Sequence record: OR083247.1
Strand: one strand, 5' to 3'
DNA from: Escherichia phage Bf23
DNA: 64,000 bases
Below the pieces are notes generated by a model. The model worked only from the letters and a program-made list of their open reading frames with translations, searched no databases and was not told where the DNA came from. Below are positions 1 through 26,298 of the stretch, piece after piece (position 1 is the stretch's first letter; each line of letters begins with the position of its first letter). The position numbers were made by a program, and so were the translations under genes.

Positions 1-55
1 CGAACCCCCAACTTCTGGTTGGCAACCAAAAATTATACCCTTTAACTACGAACGC
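1..55 (-). tRNA. tRNA-Gly(GCC), 3' part cut by window edge
   Basis: Minus-strand fold: acceptor GCGTTCG, D-arm GTTA/AAGGGTA/TAAT, anticodon stem TTTGG/CCAGA (one G-U), loop TTGCCAA; T-loop runs off the window start. Confidence 0.5.
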
Positions 56-64
56 AAAATAAGT

Positions 65-186
65 CATTCTAGGCAGGATTCGAACCTGCTATCACTTGTG
101 CGGACTTACGAGAACCATTCTTTCACTCGAATCGAACGAGCTTCTGCCCTAGCCAAGCTGGTTTCCCCATCAACCACGCTAGAATG
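65..186 (-). ncRNA. tRNA-like element, non-canonical (about 121 nt, no encoded CCA)
   Basis: T-arm GCAGG/TTCGAAT/CCTGC at 73-89; perfect 7-bp acceptor-like pairing between 66-72 and 179-185; D-arm-like TGGT..ACCA; no canonical anticodon arm found. Confidence 0.3.
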
Positions 187-307
187 TTTGATTGTTTTCA
201 GTGCAAGAGTCCGAGTCTTGGACACGACCGCTTCGCAAGTACATAGGCAGCTTATCATGAGTCAGCACTTCCGAATTGCTAGCTCCGTGTTCTGCACTGA
301 AATTTTA

Positions 308-655
308 TTAGTTTAACCGTAAAGTATTATCTACTTCACCATTAATTGTTCGGCATTCCTCTGGGATTGTCGGAGTGGCCTTGTATTCCCACCACTCAGC
401 ACCGTCATACTCCCCACGTTCTAGCCAAGTTCCATCGGCAAACCATACATTACCATAAAGTAATTGTCCACCGTATCCAGAATCATATTCAAAGTCTAGG
501 TTATTAAGAAAATCCTCAATATCTTCTTCTGTATAGCCTAAAGGTAGTACCCAAACTTTTTTATCCCCATAATACCCGAATTCTATTTTAATACACTTAA
601 CTTCAGAATTAGTATTTTTTAAGGCAAGTAACAACTCTTCTTTGGCATTACGCAT
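308..655 (-). CDS. hypothetical protein (115 aa)
   Basis: ORF on the same strand as neighbouring early genes; no recognised motif. Confidence 0.45.
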   Translation of the reverse strand: MRNAKEELLLALKNTNSEVKCIKIEFGYYGDKKVWVLPLGYTEEDIEDFLNNLDFEYDSGYGGQLLYGNVWFADGTWLERGEYDGAEWWEYKATPTIPEECRTINGEVDNTLRLN

Positions 656-680
656 AGTATATTCTCATACTGAATTATTT

Positions 681-757
681 TGGCGCGACCGATGGGATTT
701 GAACCCACATTCTCTCCCGTGACAGGGGAGTACCATTACCAAGCCAGCCCCGGTCGC
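681..757 (-). tRNA. tRNA-Asp(GTC)
   Basis: Acceptor GCGACCG/CGGTCGC, anticodon stem CTCCC/GGGAG, loop CTGTCAC, T-arm GTGGG/TTCAAAT/CCCAT, discriminator G, CCA encoded (TGG at 681-683 on plus). Confidence 0.8.
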
Positions 758-766
758 ATAATTTAT

Positions 767-952
767 TTACTCAGCTTTGAGTTTTTCAATAGCTGCATTA
801 AGTTCTTTAAGAAACTCTTTTCGTACATTAAGACGATTGAGACTTACTAGTATATCATGTTTAAGTTCTTCGATGTATTTCTTCTCAACTTCAATATTGT
901 TGATAGTGCTATCACGATGAACCTCTAGCTGTGCAATTACGTTCTTAGACAT
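767..952 (-). CDS. hypothetical small coiled-coil protein (61 aa)
   Basis: ORF track; charged heptad-like sequence. Confidence 0.35.
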   Translation of the reverse strand: MSKNVIAQLEVHRDSTINNIEVEKKYIEELKHDILVSLNRLNVRKEFLKELNAAIEKLKAE

Positions 953-1054
953 ACTTATTTCCTCAGTTATTAATGAAAATGGTATCTGTGGCTGAATTCG
1001 ATGTCAGCAATGATAGCTGGTTGGCTACCGGTTTACTTAACTCTACACAGAATT

Positions 1055-1132
1055 TGGCGGTTCCTGCTGGATTCGAACCAGCAACCCTCAACTTAACAAG
1101 ATGCCGCTCTAACCAATTAGAGCTAAGGAACC
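1055..1132 (-). tRNA. tRNA-Asn(GTT)
   Basis: Acceptor GGTTCCT/AGGAACC, D-arm GCTC..GAGC, loop TTGTTAA, T-arm GCTGG/TTCGAAT/CCAGC, discriminator G, CCA encoded; anticodon stem has mismatches (3 of 5 pairs). Confidence 0.6.
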
Positions 1133-1627
1133 ATATAAGTCAGAACTAGAGTTAATACGTTCTAGATATTTACTAAGATCTCTAGAATTTATACTAAACC
1201 ACTCATGTTCTTTTAAATCTTTGAAATACTGGTGAATTAGTTTTTCACCTTTTCGTTTGTCAAACCAAAAAGACCAATGCTCTAACTTATAATCCCTATA
1301 AGGGGAATAAGTCTGATATTGAGCTAATCTCTCTTTTGGATTTTGACTCATGCCTATTTTATACTGATTTTTCCATGCAGGATTACTAATACAGTATACA
1401 AAACCTTCAGAAATAGGAAGTTTATTTTCCTGCTTAAACTTTATAAAGGAAAGTGCAGCAAGTTTTCTCGAATACATAGTATTTGTATTCTTTTTGGTAT
1501 TACCATTGGTTCCTGAAAGATTTATATATTCTTCCATAAATCTTTGGATTAGTTCTGCAGTTATATAGAAGGGCTCATTAGTAACAACGCCTTTCTTTAC
1601 CAAACTATCAAAAACTTTTGTATGCAC
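1109..1627 (-). CDS. GIY-YIG / T5orf172-like domain protein (172 aa)
   Basis: Motif GFVYCISNP..YKIGMSQNP..RLAQYQT matches the GIY-YIG-like T5orf172 pattern; 3' end overlaps tRNA-Asn by about 24 nt. Confidence 0.55.
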   Translation of the reverse strand: MHTKVFDSLVKKGVVTNEPFYITAELIQRFMEEYINLSGTNGNTKKNTNTMYSRKLAALSFIKFKQENKLPISEGFVYCISNPAWKNQYKIGMSQNPKERLAQYQTYSPYRDYKLEHWSFWFDKRKGEKLIHQYFKDLKEHEWFSINSRDLSKYLERINSSSDLYGSLALIG

Positions 1628-1648
1628 TACGCCTTTCCTTTAGTAATT

Positions 1649-1724
1649 TGGACGACCGCATGAGATTTGAACTCACATAAAAAGGATTTGCAATCCTTCG
1701 CCTAAGCCATTCAGCCAACGGTCG
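1649..1724 (-). tRNA. tRNA-Cys(GCA)
   Basis: Anticodon stem AAGGA/TCCTT, loop TTGCAAA, T-arm GTGAG/TTCAAAT/CTCAT, acceptor 7 bp with one G-U, discriminator U73 (Cys identity element), CCA encoded. Confidence 0.8.
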
Positions 1725-1902
1725 ATTTATCTTGTTTTTCGAGATCTTCAAATTCTAAATCATTGAAGTTCCCTAGAGTACGGGAGTAGAACCCGTCTCC
1801 TGCGTCATAGCCTGATTTGCCACAATCACACATTTTAAATTCACGAAGATGTGTAAAAACATGTTCAGAACCACAACACTTAAATCTAACTAATCGTTTC
1901 AT
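1711..1902 (-). CDS. small Cys-rich protein, possible zinc ribbon (63 aa)
   Basis: CC..H..C.C spacing in the translated ORF; stop overlaps the tRNA-Cys 5' end. Confidence 0.4.
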   Translation of the reverse strand: MKRLVRFKCCGSEHVFTHLREFKMCDCGKSGYDAGDGFYSRTLGNFNDLEFEDLEKQDKSTVG

Positions 1903-1931
1903 TAGCTTCTCCAGTTCAATTTATGTAATTA

Positions 1932-2240
1932 TTATATAGAACTTTTGGAAACTAAGCAACTACATTTTTTTAAGAATTTGATGCCTTTCTTTTTCTTCTT
2001 ATATTTCCACGTTAATGGATTTTGTCGATTATGAACGCTTGAGATCTTTGTCTCGTCAAAGTTCTTCAATATCATGTAATCACAGGATAATTGTTTTAGT
2101 GGAATGTGATCCCCGTCAAAAGCGTATACATAAGGCTGTTGACTAGCACGATAATGATAGACTTTGTTAATTCTACGTTTCAGCGACTTATCCGCACAGT
2201 AAATAAAGAAGTTTTCAGGATGCACTAGCATCTCCTTCAA
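1932..2240 (-). CDS. hypothetical protein (102 aa)
   Basis: ORF track; lysine-rich C-terminus. Confidence 0.4.
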   Translation of the reverse strand: MKEMLVHPENFFIYCADKSLKRRINKVYHYRASQQPYVYAFDGDHIPLKQLSCDYMILKNFDETKISSVHNRQNPLTWKYKKKKKGIKFLKKCSCLVSKSSI

Positions 2241-2242
2241 TT

Positions 2243-2317
2243 TGGTGCACCCTGTTCGAATTGAACGAACCTCTCAAGCTCTTCAGGCAAGCGCTAATCC
2301 ATCTCAGCTAAAGGTGC
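2243..2317 (-). tRNA. tRNA-Phe(GAA)
   Basis: Acceptor GCACCTT/AGGGTGC (one G-U), D-stem GCTG/TAGC, loop CTGAAGA, T-arm GTTCG/TTCAATT/CGAAC, discriminator A73, CCA encoded; anticodon stem carries two U-U mismatches. Confidence 0.55.
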
Positions 2318-2323
2318 AAATTT

Positions 2324-2394
2324 TGGCAGGGGTAAAGGTATTCGAAACCTTTTCATGGGTTTTGTAGGCCCATTTGCAACCTATGCGTACCCCA
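2324..2394 (-). tRNA. tRNA-like gene, anticodon unassigned (short, possibly degenerate)
   Basis: CCA encoded, T-arm AAGGT/TTCGAAT/ACCTT, 6-bp acceptor GGGGTA/TACCCC; middle region only 35 nt and no canonical 7-nt anticodon loop resolved. Confidence 0.35.
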
Positions 2395-2403
2395 ATTGTT
2401 AAT

Positions 2404-2480
2404 TGGCGTCCTGTGCGGGGATCGAACCCGCAAACCCTACCTTGAAAGGGTAGTGACTTTACCCGTTTGTCTAACAGGAC
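2404..2480 (-). tRNA. tRNA-Glu(TTC)
   Basis: Perfect acceptor GTCCTGT/ACAGGAC, anticodon stem CTACC/GGTAG, loop CTTTCAA, T-arm GCGGG/TTCGATC/CCCGC, discriminator G, CCA encoded. Confidence 0.8.
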
Positions 2481-2486
2481 TTAAAT

Positions 2487-2574
2487 TGGTAGGGGAGGAT
2501 GGAGTCGAACCACCCGAGTCGCAATGACAACTAATTTACAGTCAGCTCTGCTACCACTTACAGAATACTCCCCC
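2487..2574 (-). tRNA. tRNA-Tyr(GTA), type II with long variable arm
   Basis: Anticodon loop CTGTAAA with stem GCTGA/TTAGT (two G-U), variable arm about 15 nt, T-arm GGTGG/TTCGACT/CCATC, discriminator A73, CCA encoded; 88 nt. Confidence 0.65.
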
Positions 2575-21396: not shown

Positions 21397-21565
21397 ATCT
21401 GTATATACACATCCCGATGATATATTTGTATGGGCGGATGGTAGTTGGTGCTATCGATGTGAGCTATGGGAAATGGACTATAAATCCGATGACTATGGTG
21501 TCATATATGTTGATACAGTTGAGTATGATACGTTCTTAGAAAGGGACAAAAATGAAAATAAGTAA
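21356..21565 (+). CDS. hypothetical protein (69 aa)
   Basis: ORF track. Confidence 0.35.
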   Translation: MCRREGETDMSIVKSVYTHPDDIFVWADGSWCYRCELWEMDYKSDDYGVIYVDTVEYDTFLERDKNENK

Positions 21566-22058
21566 TACTCCAATTATTTTTCTAGATATTGATGGGGTGC
21601 TCAACTCGAGCATCTCCCATCACCATGCACCTGATGATGAAAAGATTTTCTTTGGAAGTGACTGGGTCTTTAAACCGCTTCTCAAGGCTTTTCAGGACTT
21701 TATTCGTCCTTCTCCAATAATGATTGTTGGGGTATCTTCATGGTTCTCTGTTAGGAATGAGGTGGAGAACGTTCAGATTATGACCGGATTAGATCTTATC
21801 GATCGTTTTCTTGGTACAACGGATTTTACTGGTGGTGGATTATCTAGAGGTAATTCTGTTCTTCGCTTCGTTGAAAAGCATAAGCTCAAACATTGGTGTG
21901 TGCTGGATGACGCTGGTGCTATGATGTACCAGTATCCAACGGTTATAGTCAACGGTAGAACTGGAATAAATCTTCAAGATTTAAGAGCTGTTAGCTATAT
22001 GCTAGAATTTAGCCCAGATCTTGAAATGTGTAAATCCTTACAACAATTTAAGGTGTAA
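21552..22058 (+). CDS. HAD-superfamily hydrolase-like protein (168 aa)
   Basis: HAD motif I IIFLDIDGVLNS and a later VLDDAG aspartate pair. Confidence 0.5.
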   Translation: MKISNTPIIFLDIDGVLNSSISHHHAPDDEKIFFGSDWVFKPLLKAFQDFIRPSPIMIVGVSSWFSVRNEVENVQIMTGLDLIDRFLGTTDFTGGGLSRGNSVLRFVEKHKLKHWCVLDDAGAMMYQYPTVIVNGRTGINLQDLRAVSYMLEFSPDLEMCKSLQQFKV

Positions 22059-22060
22059 AT

Positions 22061-22489
22061 ATGTTCAATAATGTATTCTCTAAAGAAGCTAACCCAATTT
22101 TGGTTAATTTTTGGCGTACTCTTCCAGCCAACCTGTACAATGAGGCTATTAATGCTCTGAAAATATGGTGTGAGAATAATGAAATCTCCTTTGCTTTTAA
22201 GGGTGAGATTGAAGAAGCTCCCTGTATTGGTTTAATTGTGCAGGTAGAGGATGGTTTGGAAGAGATTGTCGGCTGGAAAGAGTTGGATGAAATGGGGTTG
22301 GTTTTTGCATTAAACTATAAGCTATTTATGCCCAATAAACACCGTATTGTTGTTAACTATAAAACCAGTGAATCTCCGGGCTTTCAAGTTAATGAACATT
22401 ACGGTTGGTCTTACTCACCGGAAGAAGTAAATGATGGTATCCAAAAACTTCGTCGTTTTGGTTATCAAATTCCGGGTTTAACCGCCTAA
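22061..22489 (+). CDS. hypothetical protein, paralogue A of a tandem pair (142 aa)
   Basis: Shares PCIGL, ELDEMGLVFALNYKLFMP and C-terminal YQIPGL with the next ORF. Confidence 0.5.
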   Translation: MFNNVFSKEANPILVNFWRTLPANLYNEAINALKIWCENNEISFAFKGEIEEAPCIGLIVQVEDGLEEIVGWKELDEMGLVFALNYKLFMPNKHRIVVNYKTSESPGFQVNEHYGWSYSPEEVNDGIQKLRRFGYQIPGLTA

Positions 22490-22498
22490 GGGGGCACA

Positions 22499-22891
22499 AT
22501 GGAACAAGTATATTGGCGTCAGATTGATCCTAGTTTGGTGAAGCGTGCGGAGAAGCTGCTACAACGTTGGTTGGGGGTAAGACAAGCCTCCTTCACTTTT
22601 CCGGAGCAGCAAATAGACGATCCCTGTATTGGTGTTTTCCTATCAGGCTACGCTAGGGAATGGGAATTGGATTGGAATGAGTTGTCTGCTATGGGTTTAA
22701 TTGTTGCACTAAATTTCTCTTTGTTCCATCCACGTGGTTTGGCCCTATGTCGTGTGCCTGATGACGGTTGTTCGCCCCATCTTTTACAGGTGGAAGATGA
22801 TATTTGGGAGTACACTCCAGATATTCTCAAAGAAGCTAAAGAACAGTTAAACCATGTTGGGATCTATGTTCCAGGCTTGAATGATGAATGA
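22499..22891 (+). CDS. hypothetical protein, paralogue B of a tandem pair (130 aa)
   Basis: PCIGV, ELSAMGLIVALNFSLFHP and C-terminal IYVPGL mirror the previous ORF. Confidence 0.5.
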   Translation: MEQVYWRQIDPSLVKRAEKLLQRWLGVRQASFTFPEQQIDDPCIGVFLSGYAREWELDWNELSAMGLIVALNFSLFHPRGLALCRVPDDGCSPHLLQVEDDIWEYTPDILKEAKEQLNHVGIYVPGLNDE

Positions 22892-22982
22892 TTTTTATTA
22901 GCTGAACTCTGATTACCGAGTCATTTTGGCTCGGTTTTCTCTGTGCTTAAAGACACTGATAGCACCTTTGGGAAAAATTTAC

Positions 22983-23011
22983 TTGCATGATGCCCAAAAT
23001 CTTGATATAAT
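22983..23011 (+). promoter_or_regulatory. T5-type promoter (-35 TTGCAT, 17-nt spacer, -10 TATAAT) with no ORF directly downstream
   Basis: Hexamers plus downstream ATTTATATTGAATTGAGAG box; next CDS begins at 23509. Confidence 0.6.
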
Positions 23012-23508
23012 ATTTATATTGAATTGAGAGACATTAGTAAAAATTGATTTTGCTAATTTTTCTTGTTTACAATCCGCGATACGGAACAGTTAGGCTGCCC
23101 CATTAAGGGTTGTTTTAACTATTACTAGTGTTTATATTGCATTAGTTAATCTTCAATTAAGTGATCTGTGTACCCTGAATTCGGAAAGGTAAATCCAAAC
23201 CGTGCATATTTAGCTCGTTATATAGGCAGAGTTTTATATGGGGGTGCGAACGAAAAGAGCAGCGAATGGCGGCACGTACAGTAGTCACCTACCAATAGGA
23301 TAGTGAGGACAAATAGAATCGGCTTAGCGGCCAATGACCTAGGTTCTATTCTGTATATGAGCGAAGAGAGCACAGCACTGAGATATGATAACTTATTCAT
23401 ATTGTTTGATGATAATTGATGTTTACGTAAATAGTAGTAATAGTTGTTCTATTCTTTCTGAATAGTCCTAAAGAAAAGATTTCGATTAACCAACATAGGA
23501 GTATTGTT

Positions 23509-26298
23509 GTGTTTTCTATCCTCCAAGGTCACGCCGGGTTTTCTCGTGATTTAGCAACAGGTATTTGGCGAGAAATCAAAGCGGAAGATTATACCTTTGC
23601 CAAGCGATTCTCGAAAGAGCATCCAGAAGGTAAACCAGCTTCTATGCCCTTCAAATTTGATGTAATAGAAGAGCACGACCCACAAAGCCTTGCCGAAATG
23701 TTACCCCTTATGAGACGTTTAACGTCTGATCCTCATATCGTTGCGGTACGAGGTCGATGTCTTGCACCTAAAAATAATGTGCGGCGTAAGAAAGGTAACT
23801 TTAATGTATCTAATCCTAGTAATATTATTGCTATGGACGTGGATGGTATCCTAGATACCGGTGGGTACGACAAATTTAATCTTGTTGGTATGGCTCGCCA
23901 CATTATTAAGATGTTGAATAGTATTAGTGAGGATATGTTCCCTCTTGATGCAGGCTTTATAGCTCATGCATCGTCTTCGGCTGGGCTAAAACCAGGTATC
24001 CGAATGCACTTAATGCTAGAATCTAATGTCAAGGTAACTCAGGGTCAGCTAAAGTTCTTATTTACATCTATCAACGATAGTAGTAAGCAAAAATTTGGTT
24101 TTGATATTGCCGACCTAGCTTATTATTCATCTGTCCAGCTCCACTATTTTGCCGACCCCTTATTTAGCGATGGTATTGTTGATCCGTTTAAAGCGGAGAG
24201 TAAGCCACGTCTGGTGTATGTTAAAGGTTCGAAAGTAAATTTGCCCAATAATCTGGTTGACTATGAAACAACTAGAGGGGAGTTTAAGGAAGAGTTTTAT
24301 TCCTTACTTGATCAAATTAAAGGCAAAAAGATTGCTTCTGATAAAGTAGAAGAAACCATCAGCGAGTTAGAAGAGGCTGATGATGGGGTGTATTTGCGTA
24401 TTATCCCCAAACTATACCATAGAGCATTAGAGGATGGGGTTGATTTTGCATGGCTAGAACGTGAGATTAAACCAGCTTTATCTGAATATATTGCAACTAA
24501 AGATAACAGTCGTAATATTCAAGATTACTTTAATAACGGTCGTAAGCAGGCTCTCAAAGCGTTTGTTAATAATTCTAAACGTGAGATTCCATTAAATCTG
24601 AAAGGTGTTCCACTTAAGAAATTAGAAGTGGATTCTCCACCAGAAGTTCCATACCTGAAGATTAACATTGTGCCCCCCAAAGGCCATATAACATTTGTTA
24701 AGGCAAGTCTTGGTACTGGTAAAACTACGGCAGTAACTAAATGGCTGGACGCAGGTGTTCTTCCGGGCAACTTTTTAGCAGTTACAAATACTAGAGCACT
24801 GGTATCTTCAAATGCCAAGAAATTTAGTGCAGGACAATACGATAAGTCTGTAGATATGCTCAACTTTAAACGTGGAGCTATTGATCGTATGTCCACAACT
24901 ATTCACTCTTTGCATAAGTTCAAAAGTTTTATTGGGCAAATAGACACCATTTTTATTGATGAATGTGACGCTGTAATGAATGACCTATTATTCGCCCCTG
25001 TTGTTAAACAACGTCGCGAGTGTATTCAAGTTCTACGTGACATCCTCATGACAGCTAAGACTGTAATCTTATCCGATGGTGATATTAGCGCTGAGACGAT
25101 TGAAGCATATGGTTCTCTAATTGATTTTGATAAACCAGTAGCATTTTATAATCATCACCGTAAAATGCTGTCAAAAGCACACGCTTATGAGTTCCCTGAT
25201 GAATCCAGTATTTGGGTTGCACTTCAGACTTCTCTAGAGATGGGTGAGAAATCTATTCTAGTATCTGATTGTGGTCCTGATGAGCTGAATGAGAAGGGTA
25301 TGGCACTACGTCGTAATACTGGTGCGTTAGTTAAGGAAATCCATTCAAACTCTACGTCAGATGTGGATATTCGACGTATTCTGGATTATACAACTAATGA
25401 GCTAATTGATCAACAAATTGATTGCTTATTATGTAGCCCATCCGTAACGAGTGGTGTTGACTTTAACTACTTTGATAACGTATTTGTTATTACTAGAACC
25501 AGTAATCAAGCGCCAAACATGCGTTTCCAAGCAATCAGGCGCGACCGTGGTGCTCAGAATATCTATTATTTTATTGATAAATCCACTAGTGGGTTCTCCG
25601 CAGGTTCTGAACAATATAATATTGATGAAGGTTGGCTGGAGTTAGCACAGCAATTATACGCACGTCGCAGGGAACTGGAATCCAGGAACTATACTAGTAC
25701 TTTACGTTATTACTTGCTTGATCAAGGTGCAACTATTGATATTTTCAGCGAAAGCTGGGGAACTATTGAAGGTGCTGGTAAAGAGTACACAGAAGAGCGA
25801 ATCAAAGCTATTCTGCATTCAACTCCAGATTATTGTGCTCCACGTCATGCGGATGCGTATGAAGCTAAACTACTTCTTGTTCGCTATTATCATCTTGAGT
25901 CTATTAAAGATGTAACAGTTGAGCATGTTGAACAATATATCAAAGATAAACCGAATGATCGAGCTGCATTCTTCCATAAGATGCACGAGATGTTTTGGGA
26001 AGATATTAAGAAGTGTTCAAACGTCACTATCAAACCATTCATAGAAGCTCTGAAAGGTAAGAAGAAAGATTTCTTCCTTAAAACAGGTCAGAGTGCTAAT
26101 GCAAAATATGCTAGAATGTATCTTGGTATGATGGGCATTGGTAAAGATATGAACACGGAGAATATTGTAGACTGGTATAGAACCTATTGTAAAATCGAGT
26201 GTATGCCAATTCCTTATAAGTTCATGACTGACGAGGAAAAACATATGCATGATGAAGCAATGTCAGAGCTAGGTGCTAGAAATGACAGTGAAGAATAA
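23509..26298 (+). CDS. Walker-type ATPase/helicase, putative replication-origin-binding protein (929 aa), GTG start
   Basis: Walker A SLGTGKTT, Walker B FIDECDAV; AGGAG RBS 8 nt upstream of GTG. Confidence 0.65.
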   Translation: MFSILQGHAGFSRDLATGIWREIKAEDYTFAKRFSKEHPEGKPASMPFKFDVIEEHDPQSLAEMLPLMRRLTSDPHIVAVRGRCLAPKNNVRRKKGNFNVSNPSNIIAMDVDGILDTGGYDKFNLVGMARHIIKMLNSISEDMFPLDAGFIAHASSSAGLKPGIRMHLMLESNVKVTQGQLKFLFTSINDSSKQKFGFDIADLAYYSSVQLHYFADPLFSDGIVDPFKAESKPRLVYVKGSKVNLPNNLVDYETTRGEFKEEFYSLLDQIKGKKIASDKVEETISELEEADDGVYLRIIPKLYHRALEDGVDFAWLEREIKPALSEYIATKDNSRNIQDYFNNGRKQALKAFVNNSKREIPLNLKGVPLKKLEVDSPPEVPYLKINIVPPKGHITFVKASLGTGKTTAVTKWLDAGVLPGNFLAVTNTRALVSSNAKKFSAGQYDKSVDMLNFKRGAIDRMSTTIHSLHKFKSFIGQIDTIFIDECDAVMNDLLFAPVVKQRRECIQVLRDILMTAKTVILSDGDISAETIEAYGSLIDFDKPVAFYNHHRKMLSKAHAYEFPDESSIWVALQTSLEMGEKSILVSDCGPDELNEKGMALRRNTGALVKEIHSNSTSDVDIRRILDYTTNELIDQQIDCLLCSPSVTSGVDFNYFDNVFVITRTSNQAPNMRFQAIRRDRGAQNIYYFIDKSTSGFSAGSEQYNIDEGWLELAQQLYARRRELESRNYTSTLRYYLLDQGATIDIFSESWGTIEGAGKEYTEERIKAILHSTPDYCAPRHADAYEAKLLLVRYYHLESIKDVTVEHVEQYIKDKPNDRAAFFHKMHEMFWEDIKKCSNVTIKPFIEALKGKKKDFFLKTGQSANAKYARMYLGMMGIGKDMNTENIVDWYRTYCKIECMPIPYKFMTDEEKHMHDEAMSELGARNDSEE

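What the first reader, a model, noticed from the sequence alone, without database searches (positions are those of the whole stretch)
22892..23508. 617-bp ORF-free region directly downstream of a consensus early promoter
A perfect TTGCAT-N17-TATAAT promoter with the conserved downstream box sits at 22983-23011, but the next plausible CDS starts only at 23509. The intervening DNA (23200-23400 is relatively GC-rich) has no ORF of 60 aa or more on the plus strand. It is a candidate for a long leader, a small RNA gene, or a replication-origin-like region upstream of the putative origin-binding ATPase.
Basis: seen in the sequence. Interest (0 to 1): 0.55.

Follow-up and report, generated by a model that had tools for sequence, protein, structure and literature searches.

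The report
Conserved structured RNA before T5 helicase gene
The "empty" 617 bp in front of the phage T5 replication helicase gene D2 encode a large, intricately folded RNA that is conserved across T5-like phages, is unannotated, matches no described RNA family, and has no known function.

Summary
The window is a T5-like phage, 98% identical to T5. An upstream terminator, the annotated T5 early promoter P32 (22983-23011) and about 500 nt without a conserved ORF precede the D2/obp helicase gene (GTG 23509).

The gap is not empty. It encodes a plus-strand structured RNA:
- a conserved 5' hairpin (23069-23113);
- a roughly 38-bp AU-rich closing stalk, P1 (23116-23156 / 23406-23446);
- two three-way-junction domains;
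- an invariant C-UUAGCG-G hairpin loop (23324-23329);
- two further hairpins.

Within two sequence types, 99.5-99.8% of about 130 pairs are kept, with 7 and 6 doubly compensated pairs. One-sided changes mostly give G.U. Helices Px, P2, P6 and P7 are rebuilt from different sequences in seven to eight lineages.

The core occurs as alternative cassettes: 33-49% identity inside 90-100% identical flanks. Small ORFs are broken in relatives. There is no Rfam match and no copy outside enterobacterial T5-like phages. Iterons and DnaA-box clusters are absent.

Function is inferred, not shown. Most likely it is a cis-acting leader and processing module for the D2 mRNA. Rivals are an excised stable RNA, a replication pre-primer, and a folded single-strand priming signal.

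The parts
22915..22943 (+). Intrinsic terminator of the upstream transcription unit (stem ACCGAGTC/GGCTCGGT followed by a T-run)
   Evidence: Found by the terminator scan. Annotated as a rho-independent terminator in T5 records.
22983..23030 (+). T5 early promoter P32: -35 TTGCAT 22983-22988, extended -10 TGaTATAAT 23003-23011, downstream box TTGAGAG 23024-23030. The inferred transcription start is near 23018.
   Evidence: Sequence read. The promoter class is enriched 17 against 0.37 expected, and the downstream box 4 against 0.06. Annotated as a promoter in T5 records. The 100-nt bin 22992-23091, which holds the 3' part of the promoter, is 100% identical to APCEc03.
23026..23064 (+). Leader hairpin (AUUAGUAAAA / UUUUGCUAAU core). 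This is a hot spot for insertions and repeat expansion in relatives.
   Evidence: Present in the MFE fold. Relatives carry a 97-nt insert (DT571/2, phiR2-01, L021) or three AATTTTGCT copies (oselot) at this point.
23069..23113 (+). H0: conserved 5' hairpin carrying the motif ACRGAACAGUNNGGCUGC
   Evidence: All 16 pairs are kept in types A and B. The motif is shared by T5, phiR2-01, Sugarland, My1 and L042, while the outer stem is rebuilt in Sugarland as CCGAGCAU/AUGCUUGG.
23116..23156 (+). P1 5' strand: long AU-rich closing stalk (19 + 16 bp with its partner)
   Evidence: Detected as inverted repeats I1 and I2. 35 pairs are 98.8-100% kept in type A; changes are almost all to G.U, with three unpaired cells. 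A-U to G-C compensation is seen between types A and B.
23160..23171 (+). P1b + Px 5' strands (Px = CUGUGU 23166-23171)
   Evidence: Px is doubly compensated within type A and within type B. Seven different cognate strand pairs across lineages are all fully paired.
23172..23260 (+). Domain I: P2 (23172-23176 / 23241-23245) enclosing hairpins P2a (23182-23202) and P2b (23205-23240), followed by hairpin P3 (23246-23260)
   Evidence: Independent folds of every type give the same three-way architecture. P2 is compensated within type B (G-C to A-U) and between types. P3 is compensated within type B.
23261..23271 (+). Junction between the domains. It reads GAGAAGUG in most types and GCGAAUGG in this window.
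   Evidence: It sits at a nearly fixed distance (61-64 nt; 53 in type A) from the hexaloop motif in all types.
23272..23362 (+). Domain II: P4 (23276-23281 / 23351-23356), P5 hairpin (23284-23310), P6 (23312-23320 / 23342-23350) and the P6a hairpin GGC-UUAGCG-GCC (23321-23332; loop 23324-23329)
   Evidence: P4, P5 and P6 carry 4 doubly compensated pairs within type A. P6 is recovered by RNAalifold in all 12 sequences of a plain MAFFT alignment. It exists in eight different sequence versions. CUUAGCGG is invariant. Covariance model R1 scores 55.8 bits here.
23370..23379 (+). Px + P1b 3' strands (Px = GCACAG 23370-23375)
   Evidence: Partner of 23160-23171.
23382..23403 (+). P7 hairpin. In types B, Sugarland, My1 and L042 its loop carries GUKRCCAYCC.
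   Evidence: Compensated within type A (A-U to G-C) and within type B (U-A to G-C). Seven versions are all paired.
23406..23446 (+). P1 3' strand
   Evidence: Partner of 23116-23156.
23449..23465 (+). 3' hairpin CUAUUC-UUUCU-GAAUAG with no U-run after it, so not a terminator. It is followed by a purine tract, AAAGAAAAG.
   Evidence: All 6 pairs are kept in types A and B. Different but self-complementary sequences occupy this place in Sugarland and L042. The terminator scan finds nothing between 22935 and 23509 on the plus strand.
23497..23511 (+). Shine-Dalgarno AGGAG and the GTG start of D2/obp (929-aa bipolar SF2 helicase, a putative replication initiator)
   Evidence: Biochemistry of D2 is described in PMC3632103.

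Best explanation
The gap is the roughly 490-nt 5' leader of the D2/obp helicase mRNA, transcribed from T5 early promoter P32.

Shown here (about 0.9 confidence). Most of the leader is a conserved, highly structured plus-strand RNA module that is not protein-coding and belongs to no described RNA family. It consists of hairpin H0, a roughly 38-bp closing stalk P1, a short helix Px, two three-way-junction domains (I: P2/P2a/P2b plus P3; II: P4/P5/P6 with an invariant UUAGCG hexaloop), hairpin P7 and a 3' hairpin. It occurs immediately upstream of D2/obp in every enterobacterial T5-like representative examined here. Sequence-divergent core cassettes share one architecture.

Inferred mechanism (about 0.4 confidence). 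The module acts in cis on expression of the replication-initiator helicase. The long P1 duplex, formed by sequences flanking the core, is the kind of substrate RNase III cuts, as in rRNA leader-trailer stems and T7 early mRNAs. Cleavage there would detach the folded core. It would leave the D2 mRNA starting just before the conserved 3' hairpin, a 5' stem-loop of the kind that stabilises mRNAs. The conserved loops (UUAGCG, the H0 motif, the GAGAAGUG junction) would bind a phage or host factor that sets the timing or amount of D2.

None of the processing or binding steps has been observed.
For: Identity and annotation.
- The window is T5-like. T5 records annotate only a terminator and a promoter in this gap.

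Structure within types.
- Type A (16 distinct sequences): 129 pairs, 99.8% of cells paired, 7 pairs changed on both sides. 27 compensated cells against 6.9 +/- 2.0 in shuffles (0 of 500 reach it). Slid controls give 34-50% paired with 0-1 compensated pairs.
- Type B (11 sequences): 134 pairs, 99.5% paired, 6 doubly compensated pairs (3 of 500 shuffles reach it).

Structure between types.
- A plain MAFFT alignment of types A and B gives 101 predicted pairs, 29 of them with compensatory changes.
- Px, P2, P6 and P7 are built from 7-8 different sequences. Cognate strands pair 96-100%, non-cognate strands 40-65%.
- Independent folds of each type give the same domain architecture.

Strand.
- 17 of 129 pairs are G.U.
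- Most one-sided changes convert to G.U or alternate G-C/G.U. These would be A.C mismatches on the minus strand.
- The plus-strand RNA MFE is -108.4 kcal/mol against -84.4 for the minus strand.

Selection.
- The type-A module is 89-96% identical between T5-like phages and Epseptimavirus oselot, while the upstream genes are 52-86% identical.
- The type-B core is 33-49% identical to type A inside flanks that are 90-100% identical.

Not coding.
- All small ORFs are broken in relatives.

Cis linkage.
- The module is always directly upstream of D2/obp and co-oriented with it, in Markadamsvirinae, Sugarlandvirus, Myunavirus and Priunavirus.
- No terminator separates it from the D2 ribosome-binding site.
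- A promoter is kept upstream even where an HNH gene has replaced the original one.
- Leader length is 467-608 nt in all genera.
- In the T5 record, neighbouring early-promoter features end within about 10-35 nt of their CDSs.
- P1 forms 19 + 16 bp of near-continuous duplex.
Against: - No expression platform was found. The Shine-Dalgarno sequence is predicted to be largely accessible in T5 types (P unpaired 0.5-0.8), and it is not paired to any common upstream element across genera.
- No attenuator terminator is present.
- A module this large, with two junction domains and invariant loops, is more elaborate than known translational operators. That leaves room for a trans or catalytic role.
- The thermodynamic signal alone is modest (z = -2.1 to -3.2).
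- Within-type compensations stem from few phylogenetic splits.
- The cross-genus helix registers were set by hand.
- RNase III cleavage, factor binding and any effect on D2 are untested.
Confidence: 0.45

Rival explanations
1. Stand-alone stable noncoding RNA. The core (about 290-330 nt, its ends paired in P1) is excised from the leader and acts in trans. It could be the RNA subunit of a ribonucleoprotein, a ribozyme, or a decoy or sponge aimed at a host factor or defence system. D2 merely shares its promoter.
For: - Size and complexity resemble large ornate RNAs rather than operators: two multi-helix junction domains, an invariant hexaloop and conserved junctions.
- Paired 5' and 3' ends are typical of excised stable RNAs.
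- No expression platform was found.
- Cassette-like alternative cores inside near-identical flanks resemble the diversification seen in conflict-related loci.
Against: - Strict adjacency and co-orientation with D2/obp in four subfamilies or genera.
- No terminator of its own.
- No second copy elsewhere in the window or outside T5-like phages.
- No similarity to E. coli genomes or plasmids that would suggest mimicry of a host RNA.
Confidence: 0.25
2. Transcript-dependent replication origin. The P32 transcript folds, forms a persistent hybrid with the template and is processed into a primer, as with ColE1 RNA II or the T4 and T7 promoter-type origins. The adjacent D2 helicase is the initiator. 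Alternative cores would be origin specificity types.
For: - A strong promoter is followed by about 490 nt of structured untranslated RNA next to the putative initiator gene.
- The position corresponds to about 48.5% of the T5 genome. This is in line with an old electron-microscopy report of internal origins, cited in PMC3632103.
- Core type and D2 N-terminal type co-segregate in the genomes held here.
- The flanks are AT-rich, at 27-33% GC.
Against: - There are no iterons, tandem repeats or DnaA-box cluster.
- No antisense promoter for a copy-control RNA was found.
- Recombitron editing shows one strand preference across the T5 genome. [quoted passage not shown]
- Co-segregation with D2 is also explained by simple physical linkage. 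One A-core genome, L020, already carries a B-type spacer.
Confidence: 0.13
3. Folded single-stranded DNA signal. The plus strand, when displaced, adopts this fold and recruits RNA polymerase or primase to prime the complementary strand, as sso and ssi elements of rolling-circle plasmids and filamentous phages do.
For: - The covariation and the G.T/G.U pattern are strand-specific but cannot by themselves distinguish RNA from ssDNA.
- The invariant terminal loop TTAGCG contains TAGCG, 5 of 6 of the CS-6 motif TAGCGT found in ssoA (PMC4598088).
- T5 nicks are annotated on this same strand.
Against: - With DNA parameters the fold is weak (-39 kcal/mol, z = -0.72, 20 of 100 shuffles as good).
- 13% of the pairs are G.T as DNA.
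- The RSB motif is absent; only GAGAA is shared.
- ssoA elements are about 160 nt and belong to Gram-positive rolling-circle plasmids (PMC5703833).
- A co-oriented promoter is conserved directly upstream.
Confidence: 0.06
4. Nothing functional: a decayed gene or mobile-element remnant, or a spacer containing a small protein gene.
For: - Homing-endonuclease and other insertions occur nearby in relatives.
- Short ORFs exist in this window.
Against: - The module is more conserved than the upstream genes.
- Pairing is preserved through 13 double substitutions and across genera.
- ORFs are disrupted in relatives.
- There are no group I intron or other Rfam hits.
Confidence: 0.03

Closest known systems
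ColE1 RNA II pre-primer (and the T4 oriF/oriG and T7 promoter-type origins)
   Same: A strong promoter is followed by roughly 500 nt of untranslated, conserved, folded RNA next to replication functions. Sequence-divergent variants keep the fold.
   Different: No antisense RNA I-type promoter, no mapped origin and no R-loop evidence. Published strand-bias data argue against a dominant central origin in T5. The T5 RNA continues into an mRNA.
RNase III leader-trailer stalks (rRNA operons; T7 early mRNA processing sites)
   Same: A long duplex is formed by sequences that flank a folded RNA, directly followed by the next functional unit.
   Different: Cleavage has not been shown. The enclosed RNA is not an rRNA or an mRNA, and its function is unknown.
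Large ornate phage-associated RNAs (GOLLD, ROOL) and other large bacterial RNAs of unknown function (OLE, raiA)
   Same: It is large, multi-domain and supported by covariation. It is phage-borne and absent from annotation.
   Different: No Rfam match to any of them. It is smaller, at about 330 nt. It lies in a fixed position as an mRNA leader rather than next to tRNAs. It is restricted to one phage family.
Autoregulatory leaders of phage and bacterial nucleic-acid enzymes (T4 gene 32 pseudoknot, T4 gene 43 operator, the E. coli rne 5' UTR)
   Same: A structured 5' UTR lies in front of a replication or RNA-metabolism gene, which makes it a plausible binding site for the product of the downstream gene.
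   Different: It is several times larger than the T4 operators. There is no evident overlap with the ribosome-binding site, and binding has not been tested.
ssoA single-strand origins of rolling-circle plasmids
   Same: It is a strand-specific fold with a conserved terminal loop containing TAGCG.
   Different: It is twice the size. The RSB motif is absent. The fold is poor with DNA parameters. The replicon type and host range are different.

Membership tests
Any Rfam 15 family (including Intron_gpI, GOLLD, ROOL, riboswitches, T-box, 6S, RNase P, tmRNA) | A covariance-model match at or near the family's gathering score | tested here: not met
   The only gathering-level hits in the window are tRNAs at 1-2574. 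A permissive scan of 22850-23560 gives only E > 1.5 snoRNA-type noise. Seven relatives' loci give nothing in the element.
Riboswitch / T-box type cis-regulatory leader | An expression platform: an intrinsic terminator or an SD-sequestering helix coupled to the aptamer | tested here: not met
   There is no plus-strand terminator between 22935 and 23509. The SD is predicted 0.5-0.8 unpaired in T5 types, with no common pairing partner across genera.
ColE1 RNA II-type pre-primer | A promoter about 0.5 kb upstream of the initiation point, giving a conserved folded transcript | tested here: met
   Promoter at 22983-23011 and a conserved fold at 23069-23465. This feature alone does not establish membership.
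ColE1 RNA II-type pre-primer | An antisense regulator RNA (RNA I) with its own promoter on the opposite strand | tested here: not met
   No minus-strand promoter-like site in 22400-24000.
ColE1 RNA II-type pre-primer | A persistent RNA-DNA hybrid, RNase H processing, and DNA synthesis starting at the 3' end | not testable with these tools
   This needs R-loop and nascent-strand mapping. Indirect literature evidence (PMC10055335) points away from a dominant central origin.
Iteron / DnaA-box type duplex DNA origin | Repeated initiator-binding sites beside an AT-rich unwinding element | tested here: not met
   Only short two-copy repeats. No tandem array apart from a 2-copy heptamer inside the upstream CDS end. 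DnaA-box-like words are at chance, 77 against 83 expected. AT-rich flanks do exist.
ssoA single-strand origin | The CS-6 hexamer TAGCGT in the terminal loop | tested here: inconclusive
   The loop is TTAGCG closed by C-G, so it reads TAGCGG, 5 of 6. The motif definition comes from PMC4598088.
ssoA single-strand origin | The RSB sequence (TTATGCCGAGAAAATTT-like) at the base of the hairpin | tested here: not met
   Only GAGAA of the junction GAGAAGUG is shared, and this window has GCGAAUGG instead.
ssoA single-strand origin | A stable fold as single-stranded DNA | tested here: not met
   DNA parameters give -39 kcal/mol and z = -0.72.
RNase III processing stalk | At least about 20 bp of near-continuous dsRNA formed by flanking sequences | tested here: met
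   P1 is 19 + 16 bp separated by a small internal loop, with 98.8-100% of cells paired.
RNase III processing stalk | Staggered cleavage in the stalk in vivo, lost in an rnc host | not testable with these tools
   This needs 5'- and 3'-end mapping.
Group I intron | A conserved P3-P8 core, flanking exons and a splice-site context | tested here: not met
   No RF00028 hit even at E = 10. The element lies in an untranslated leader with no interrupted ORF.

The most novel reading that the evidence does not exclude
The element is a new class of large ornate RNA that takes part directly in the start of T5 DNA replication. For example, it could be excised from the leader to prime DNA synthesis, or to load or guide the bipolar D2 helicase. 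In that case the alternative core cassettes would act as replication-specificity or incompatibility types among co-infecting T5-like phages.
Probability: 0.15. Interest if true: 0.85.

Novelty: new member of a known kind. Interest (0 to 1): 0.62.

Why it matters
T5 is a classical model phage, and T5-like phages are widely used in phage therapy and biocontrol. Even so, how T5 starts DNA replication, and how its putative initiator helicase D2 is controlled, are unknown.

Structured RNAs longer than about 300 nt with multi-junction architecture are rare. They have often turned out to be ribozymes or the cores of ribonucleoproteins. One that sits directly in front of the initiator gene, is more conserved than its neighbouring proteins, and exists as exchangeable structural cassettes gives a concrete and genetically tractable handle on T5 replication control.

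It is also a candidate new RNA family for Rfam and for phage genome annotation, where about 500 genomes currently show a blank here.

Tried and rejected
- **Rfam.** Gathering and permissive scans of the window and of seven relatives found nothing.
- **Protein coding.** All small ORFs are broken in Epseptimavirus relatives.
- **Duplex-origin features.** No iterons, tandem repeats or DnaA boxes.
- **SD occlusion by the 5' pyrimidine tract.** An RNAalifold suggestion was not borne out by pairing probabilities across genera.
- **Host mimicry.** No blastn similarity to 5,426 E. coli genomes or to plasmids.
- **Members outside T5-like phages.**
  - IMG/VR pattern scans returned only Demerecviridae plus chance hits in coding DNA.
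  - All 49 genome-collection pattern hits failed the covariance model.
  - Only 5 of the 80 metagenome loci tested passed the model (84 pattern hits); by their scores they resemble the T5-like type B or Sugarland sequences, but their context was not examined.
- **Vibrio and Aeromonas T5-like phages.** They also have long non-coding DNA before obp, but the domain-II model does not match them. The two CUUAGCGG words in Aeromonas phage TS3 remain unexplained.
- **Full-length covariance model.** Not attempted, because of the calibration-time limit. MAFFT Q-INS-i was unavailable, so cross-genus helix registers were set by hand.
- **First structure string.** The first string given to the pair counter was shifted by two columns. 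It was corrected.
- **HSV UL9 box I.** GTGCGAACG at 23245-23253 is the reverse complement of the box I core as I recall it. It occurs only in type A (type C has 8 of 9), so I treat it as chance.
- **Rad anti-retron factor of T5.** It lies in the tRNA-region deletion, not here.
- **Earlier catalogues.** Supplementary tables of the 2023 catalogue of candidate structured RNAs in phages are not held, so I could not check whether this element is listed there.
Full report
**What the window is**

The 1-kb stretch around the finding is 98.2% identical to Escherichia phage T5. It matches 523 phage records, all T5-like (Demerecviridae). In T5 coordinates the gap lies at about 59.0-59.6 kb of 121.75 kb.

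Three independent T5 GenBank records annotate only two things in the gap: a rho-independent terminator and a putative early promoter, called T5P32 in one record. The next gene is called 'replication origin binding protein' or D2 helicase.

D2 has been characterised biochemically as a bipolar SF2 helicase and proposed as a replication initiator (PMC3632103). Its only Pfam match is to the helicase part of herpesvirus origin-binding proteins.

**Checking the observation**

- The upstream CDS ends at 22891.
- A terminator hairpin lies at 22915-22935.
- TTGCAT-N17-TATAAT lies at 22983-23011, with an extended -10 TG and the TTGAGAG downstream box.
- The D2 start GTG is at 23509, behind AGGAG.

The -35 hexamer is not the sigma-70 consensus, so the generic scan skipped the site. 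The site nevertheless belongs to the T5 early-promoter class:

- TTGC-N19-TATAAT occurs 17 times in the window against 0.37 expected.
- The downstream box occurs 4 times against 0.06 expected.

No plus-strand ORF exceeds 38 aa, and one 60-aa ORF lies on the minus strand. GC is 44% in 23200-23400 against 27-33% on either side. In the T5 record, neighbouring early-promoter features end within about 10-35 nt of their genes, whereas this promoter is about 500 nt away from its gene.

**What is there**

Inverted repeats 23117-23159 / 23413-23445 enclose the GC-richer core. Aligning relatives showed two things.

- The promoter, the first roughly 100 nt of the transcript and the last roughly 60 nt before D2 are nearly invariant.
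- The enclosed core comes in sharply bounded alternative versions:
  - type A: T5, this window, and Epseptimavirus such as oselot and S132;
  - type B: APCEc03 and SP15;
  - further types: phiR2-01, Klebsiella phage Sugarland, Pectobacterium phage My1, an unnamed IMG/VR phage (L042) and Providencia phage PSTCR5.

Against APCEc03 the flanks are 90-100% identical while the core is 33-49% identical. Against oselot the module is 89-96% identical while the upstream protein genes are 52-86% identical.

The divergent cores still share short motifs at nearly fixed spacing. GAGAAGUG is followed 61-64 nt later by CUUAGCGG, which is followed 53-58 nt later by GUKRCCAYCC.

**Evidence for an RNA fold**

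*Between types.* RNAalifold on a plain MAFFT alignment of types A and B predicted 101 pairs, 29 of them with compensatory double changes. Folding each type on its own gives the same architecture:

- helix Px closes two domains;
- domain I is P2 enclosing hairpins P2a and P2b, followed by hairpin P3;
- a purine-rich junction follows;
- domain II is P4 enclosing hairpin P5 and the long arm P6, which ends in the hairpin C-UUAGCG-G.

Outside Px lie the P1 stalk, hairpin P7, a conserved 5' hairpin H0 and a 3' hairpin.

*Within type A.* There are 16 distinct sequences and the alignment is gapless, so it is not in doubt.

- 129 pairs are 99.8% intact.
- Seven pairs (in Px, the base of domain II, P4, P5, P6 twice, and P7) are changed on both sides.
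- Slid controls give 34-50% pairing and 0-1 such pairs.
- No shuffle of 500 reaches the observed number of compensated cells.

*Within type B.* There are 11 sequences.

- 134 pairs are 99.5% intact.
- Six pairs are doubly compensated: Px twice, P2, P3, P4 and P7.

*Across lineages.*

- Px exists in seven versions, P2 in seven, P6 in eight and P7 in seven.
- Cognate strands pair 96-100%. Strands taken from different lineages pair 40-65%.
- P6 is recovered in all twelve sequences of an unedited MAFFT alignment.

*Caveats.*

- The within-type compensations come from few evolutionary splits.
- The shuffle counts are not probabilities.
- The cross-genus registers were set by hand.

**Which strand, and RNA or DNA**

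- Seventeen of the 129 pairs are G.U.
- Most one-sided changes convert a Watson-Crick pair to G.U or back.
- On the minus strand these positions would be A.C mismatches.

Fold energies point the same way.

| Molecule folded | MFE (kcal/mol) | z-score |
|---|---|---|
| Plus strand as RNA | -108.4 | -2.1 |
| Minus strand as RNA | -84.4 | -1.4 |
| Plus strand as DNA | -39 | -0.7 |

A co-oriented strong promoter directly upstream is conserved. Where an HNH endonuclease gene has replaced the original promoter (S132, SP15), a new one sits in the same place. I therefore read the element as a plus-strand RNA. A folded single-strand DNA signal remains a low-probability rival.

**Not a gene, not a known RNA, not elsewhere**

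- All small ORFs in the core lose their start or acquire stops in Epseptimavirus relatives.
- Rfam 15 has no match in the window, in the region at E up to 10, or in seven relatives.
- There is no blastn similarity in E. coli genomes or plasmids.
- A covariance model of domain II scores 54-88 bits on this window, phiR2-01, Sugarland, My1, L042 and PSTCR5, all of which were in its seed alignment. It finds no second copy in the 64-kb window and nothing in the Vibrio or Aeromonas T5-like loci.
- Motif-pattern scans recovered only T5-like phages:
  - IMG/VR gave members plus chance hits in coding DNA.
  - The 185,579-genome collection gave 49 hits, and none passed the model.
  - The metagenomes gave 84 hits. 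Of the 80 loci tested, five passed, with scores like the type B or Sugarland sequences.

On this evidence the family is confined to Demerecviridae of Enterobacterales. There, every representative examined has it immediately upstream of D2/obp.

**How it probably works**

Nothing about function is shown directly. The following facts constrain it.

- *Cis linkage.* The module is always the leader of D2/obp, with no terminator in between. Leader length is 467-608 nt in all genera.
- *No classic expression platform.* The SD is predicted to be mostly accessible and has no common partner.
- *P1 as a processing stalk.* P1 is 19 + 16 bp of near-continuous duplex formed by the sequences flanking the core. 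From established knowledge of rRNA leader-trailer stems and T7 early mRNAs, this is the geometry that RNase III cleaves.
- *Consequence of cleavage.* It would release the core with paired ends. It would leave the D2 mRNA beginning at the conserved hairpin 23449-23465, a 5' stem-loop of the protective kind.
- *Candidate contact sites.* The invariant loops and junctions (UUAGCG, the H0 motif, GAGAAGUG) look like contact sites for a protein or for tertiary folding.

My best single account is therefore a cis-acting leader and processing module that sets the level or timing of the initiator helicase. Whether the released core has a job of its own remains open.

**Rivals**

*Excised trans-acting RNA.* The size and ornateness, the paired ends, the missing expression platform and the cassette-like diversification all fit a ribonucleoprotein subunit, a ribozyme or a decoy.

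*Transcript-dependent origin, ColE1 RNA II-like.* The layout and the neighbouring initiator gene fit, and core type co-segregates with D2 type. Against it:

- There are no iterons or DnaA boxes.
- There is no antisense promoter.
- The co-segregation is expected from linkage alone.

*Folded single-strand DNA signal, sso-like.* The loop TTAGCG resembles the CS-6 hexamer TAGCGT of ssoA origins (PMC4598088). However, the RSB motif is missing, the DNA fold is weak, and ssoA elements are about 160 nt and belong to Gram-positive rolling-circle plasmids.

**Novelty and verdict**

The element is a new family of a known kind: a large structured phage RNA or mRNA leader. It is absent from Rfam 15 and from the genome annotations I saw. 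I could not check whether it appears in a 2023 catalogue of more than ten thousand candidate phage RNAs, because its tables are not held.

It deserves follow-up for three reasons:

- It sits in front of the putative replication initiator of a model phage.
- It is under stronger constraint than the upstream proteins.
- It exists as exchangeable structural cassettes.

Noticed in passing
L005:1640-2092 (Salmonella phage S132) and L007:1016-1468 (Escherichia phage SP15); insertion point corresponds to window ~22935-22982: A free-standing HNH homing-endonuclease gene is inserted between the upstream terminator and the leader. It brings a different promoter (TTGCAAGG...TATAAT) that replaces T5P32, and the structured RNA downstream is left intact.
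   Followed up: partly
L008:~1666-1762 (DT571/2), L012:~1946-2042 (phiR2-01), L021; insertion point = window 23056/23057: A 97-nt insertion (…GTGAAGCTGACAAGGGATTTACGGCGAGAGGAATCGATGACCCGTAAATAGC…) sits in the leader between the first hairpin and H0 in some phages. It contains its own inverted repeat (ATTTACGG / CCGTAAAT) and has no Rfam match. Its nature is unknown.
   Followed up: no
L004:1656-1686 (Salmonella phage oselot); window equivalent 23047-23057: The unit AATTTTGCT of the leader hairpin is present in three tandem copies, and the record annotates a repeat_region there. Its GCUAA is complementary to the invariant hexaloop UUAGC. A single-stranded UGCUAA also precedes H0 in My1 and L042, but not in Sugarland.
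   Followed up: partly
L014:719-2308 (Aeromonas phage vB_AdhS_TS3) and L013:1705-2416 (Vibrio phage Quinn): Distant T5-like phages also have long non-coding DNA before obp: 1.6 kb in TS3, where it is divergent from nrdD. TS3 has two CUUAGCGG words (1198, 1442) and a strong hairpin plus U-run (about 2179-2226) just before obp. The domain-II covariance model does not match either phage, so homology is unresolved.
   Followed up: partly
window 23245-23253: GTGCGAACG is the reverse complement of CGTTCGCAC, the core of the HSV UL9 box I site as I recall it. It is present only in core type A (type C has 8 of 9), so it is probably chance.
   Followed up: partly
L020:8374-8824 (IMG/VR T5-like contig): This genome combines a type-A core with the type-B spacer (AAAGAAAACTTATTTCATTTCC) before D2. 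Recombination therefore also occurs between the core and the D2 start.
   Followed up: no
window 21552-22891: Three genes lie upstream of the element. One is a HAD domain protein of the 'Swiss Army Knife RNA repair' type (PF18143). The other two are paralogous DUF7415 proteins of unknown function.
   Followed up: no
window 1-2574, minus strand: This is a cluster of at least six or seven tRNA genes (Asp, Asn, Cys, Phe, Glu, Tyr, and one cut by the window start). It is the T5 tRNA region.
   Followed up: no
window 17000-45000: GC skew is positive where genes are on the plus strand (about 17-45 kb) and negative elsewhere. The turning points near 17 kb and 45 kb therefore follow gene orientation and give no origin signal at 23 kb.
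   Followed up: partly
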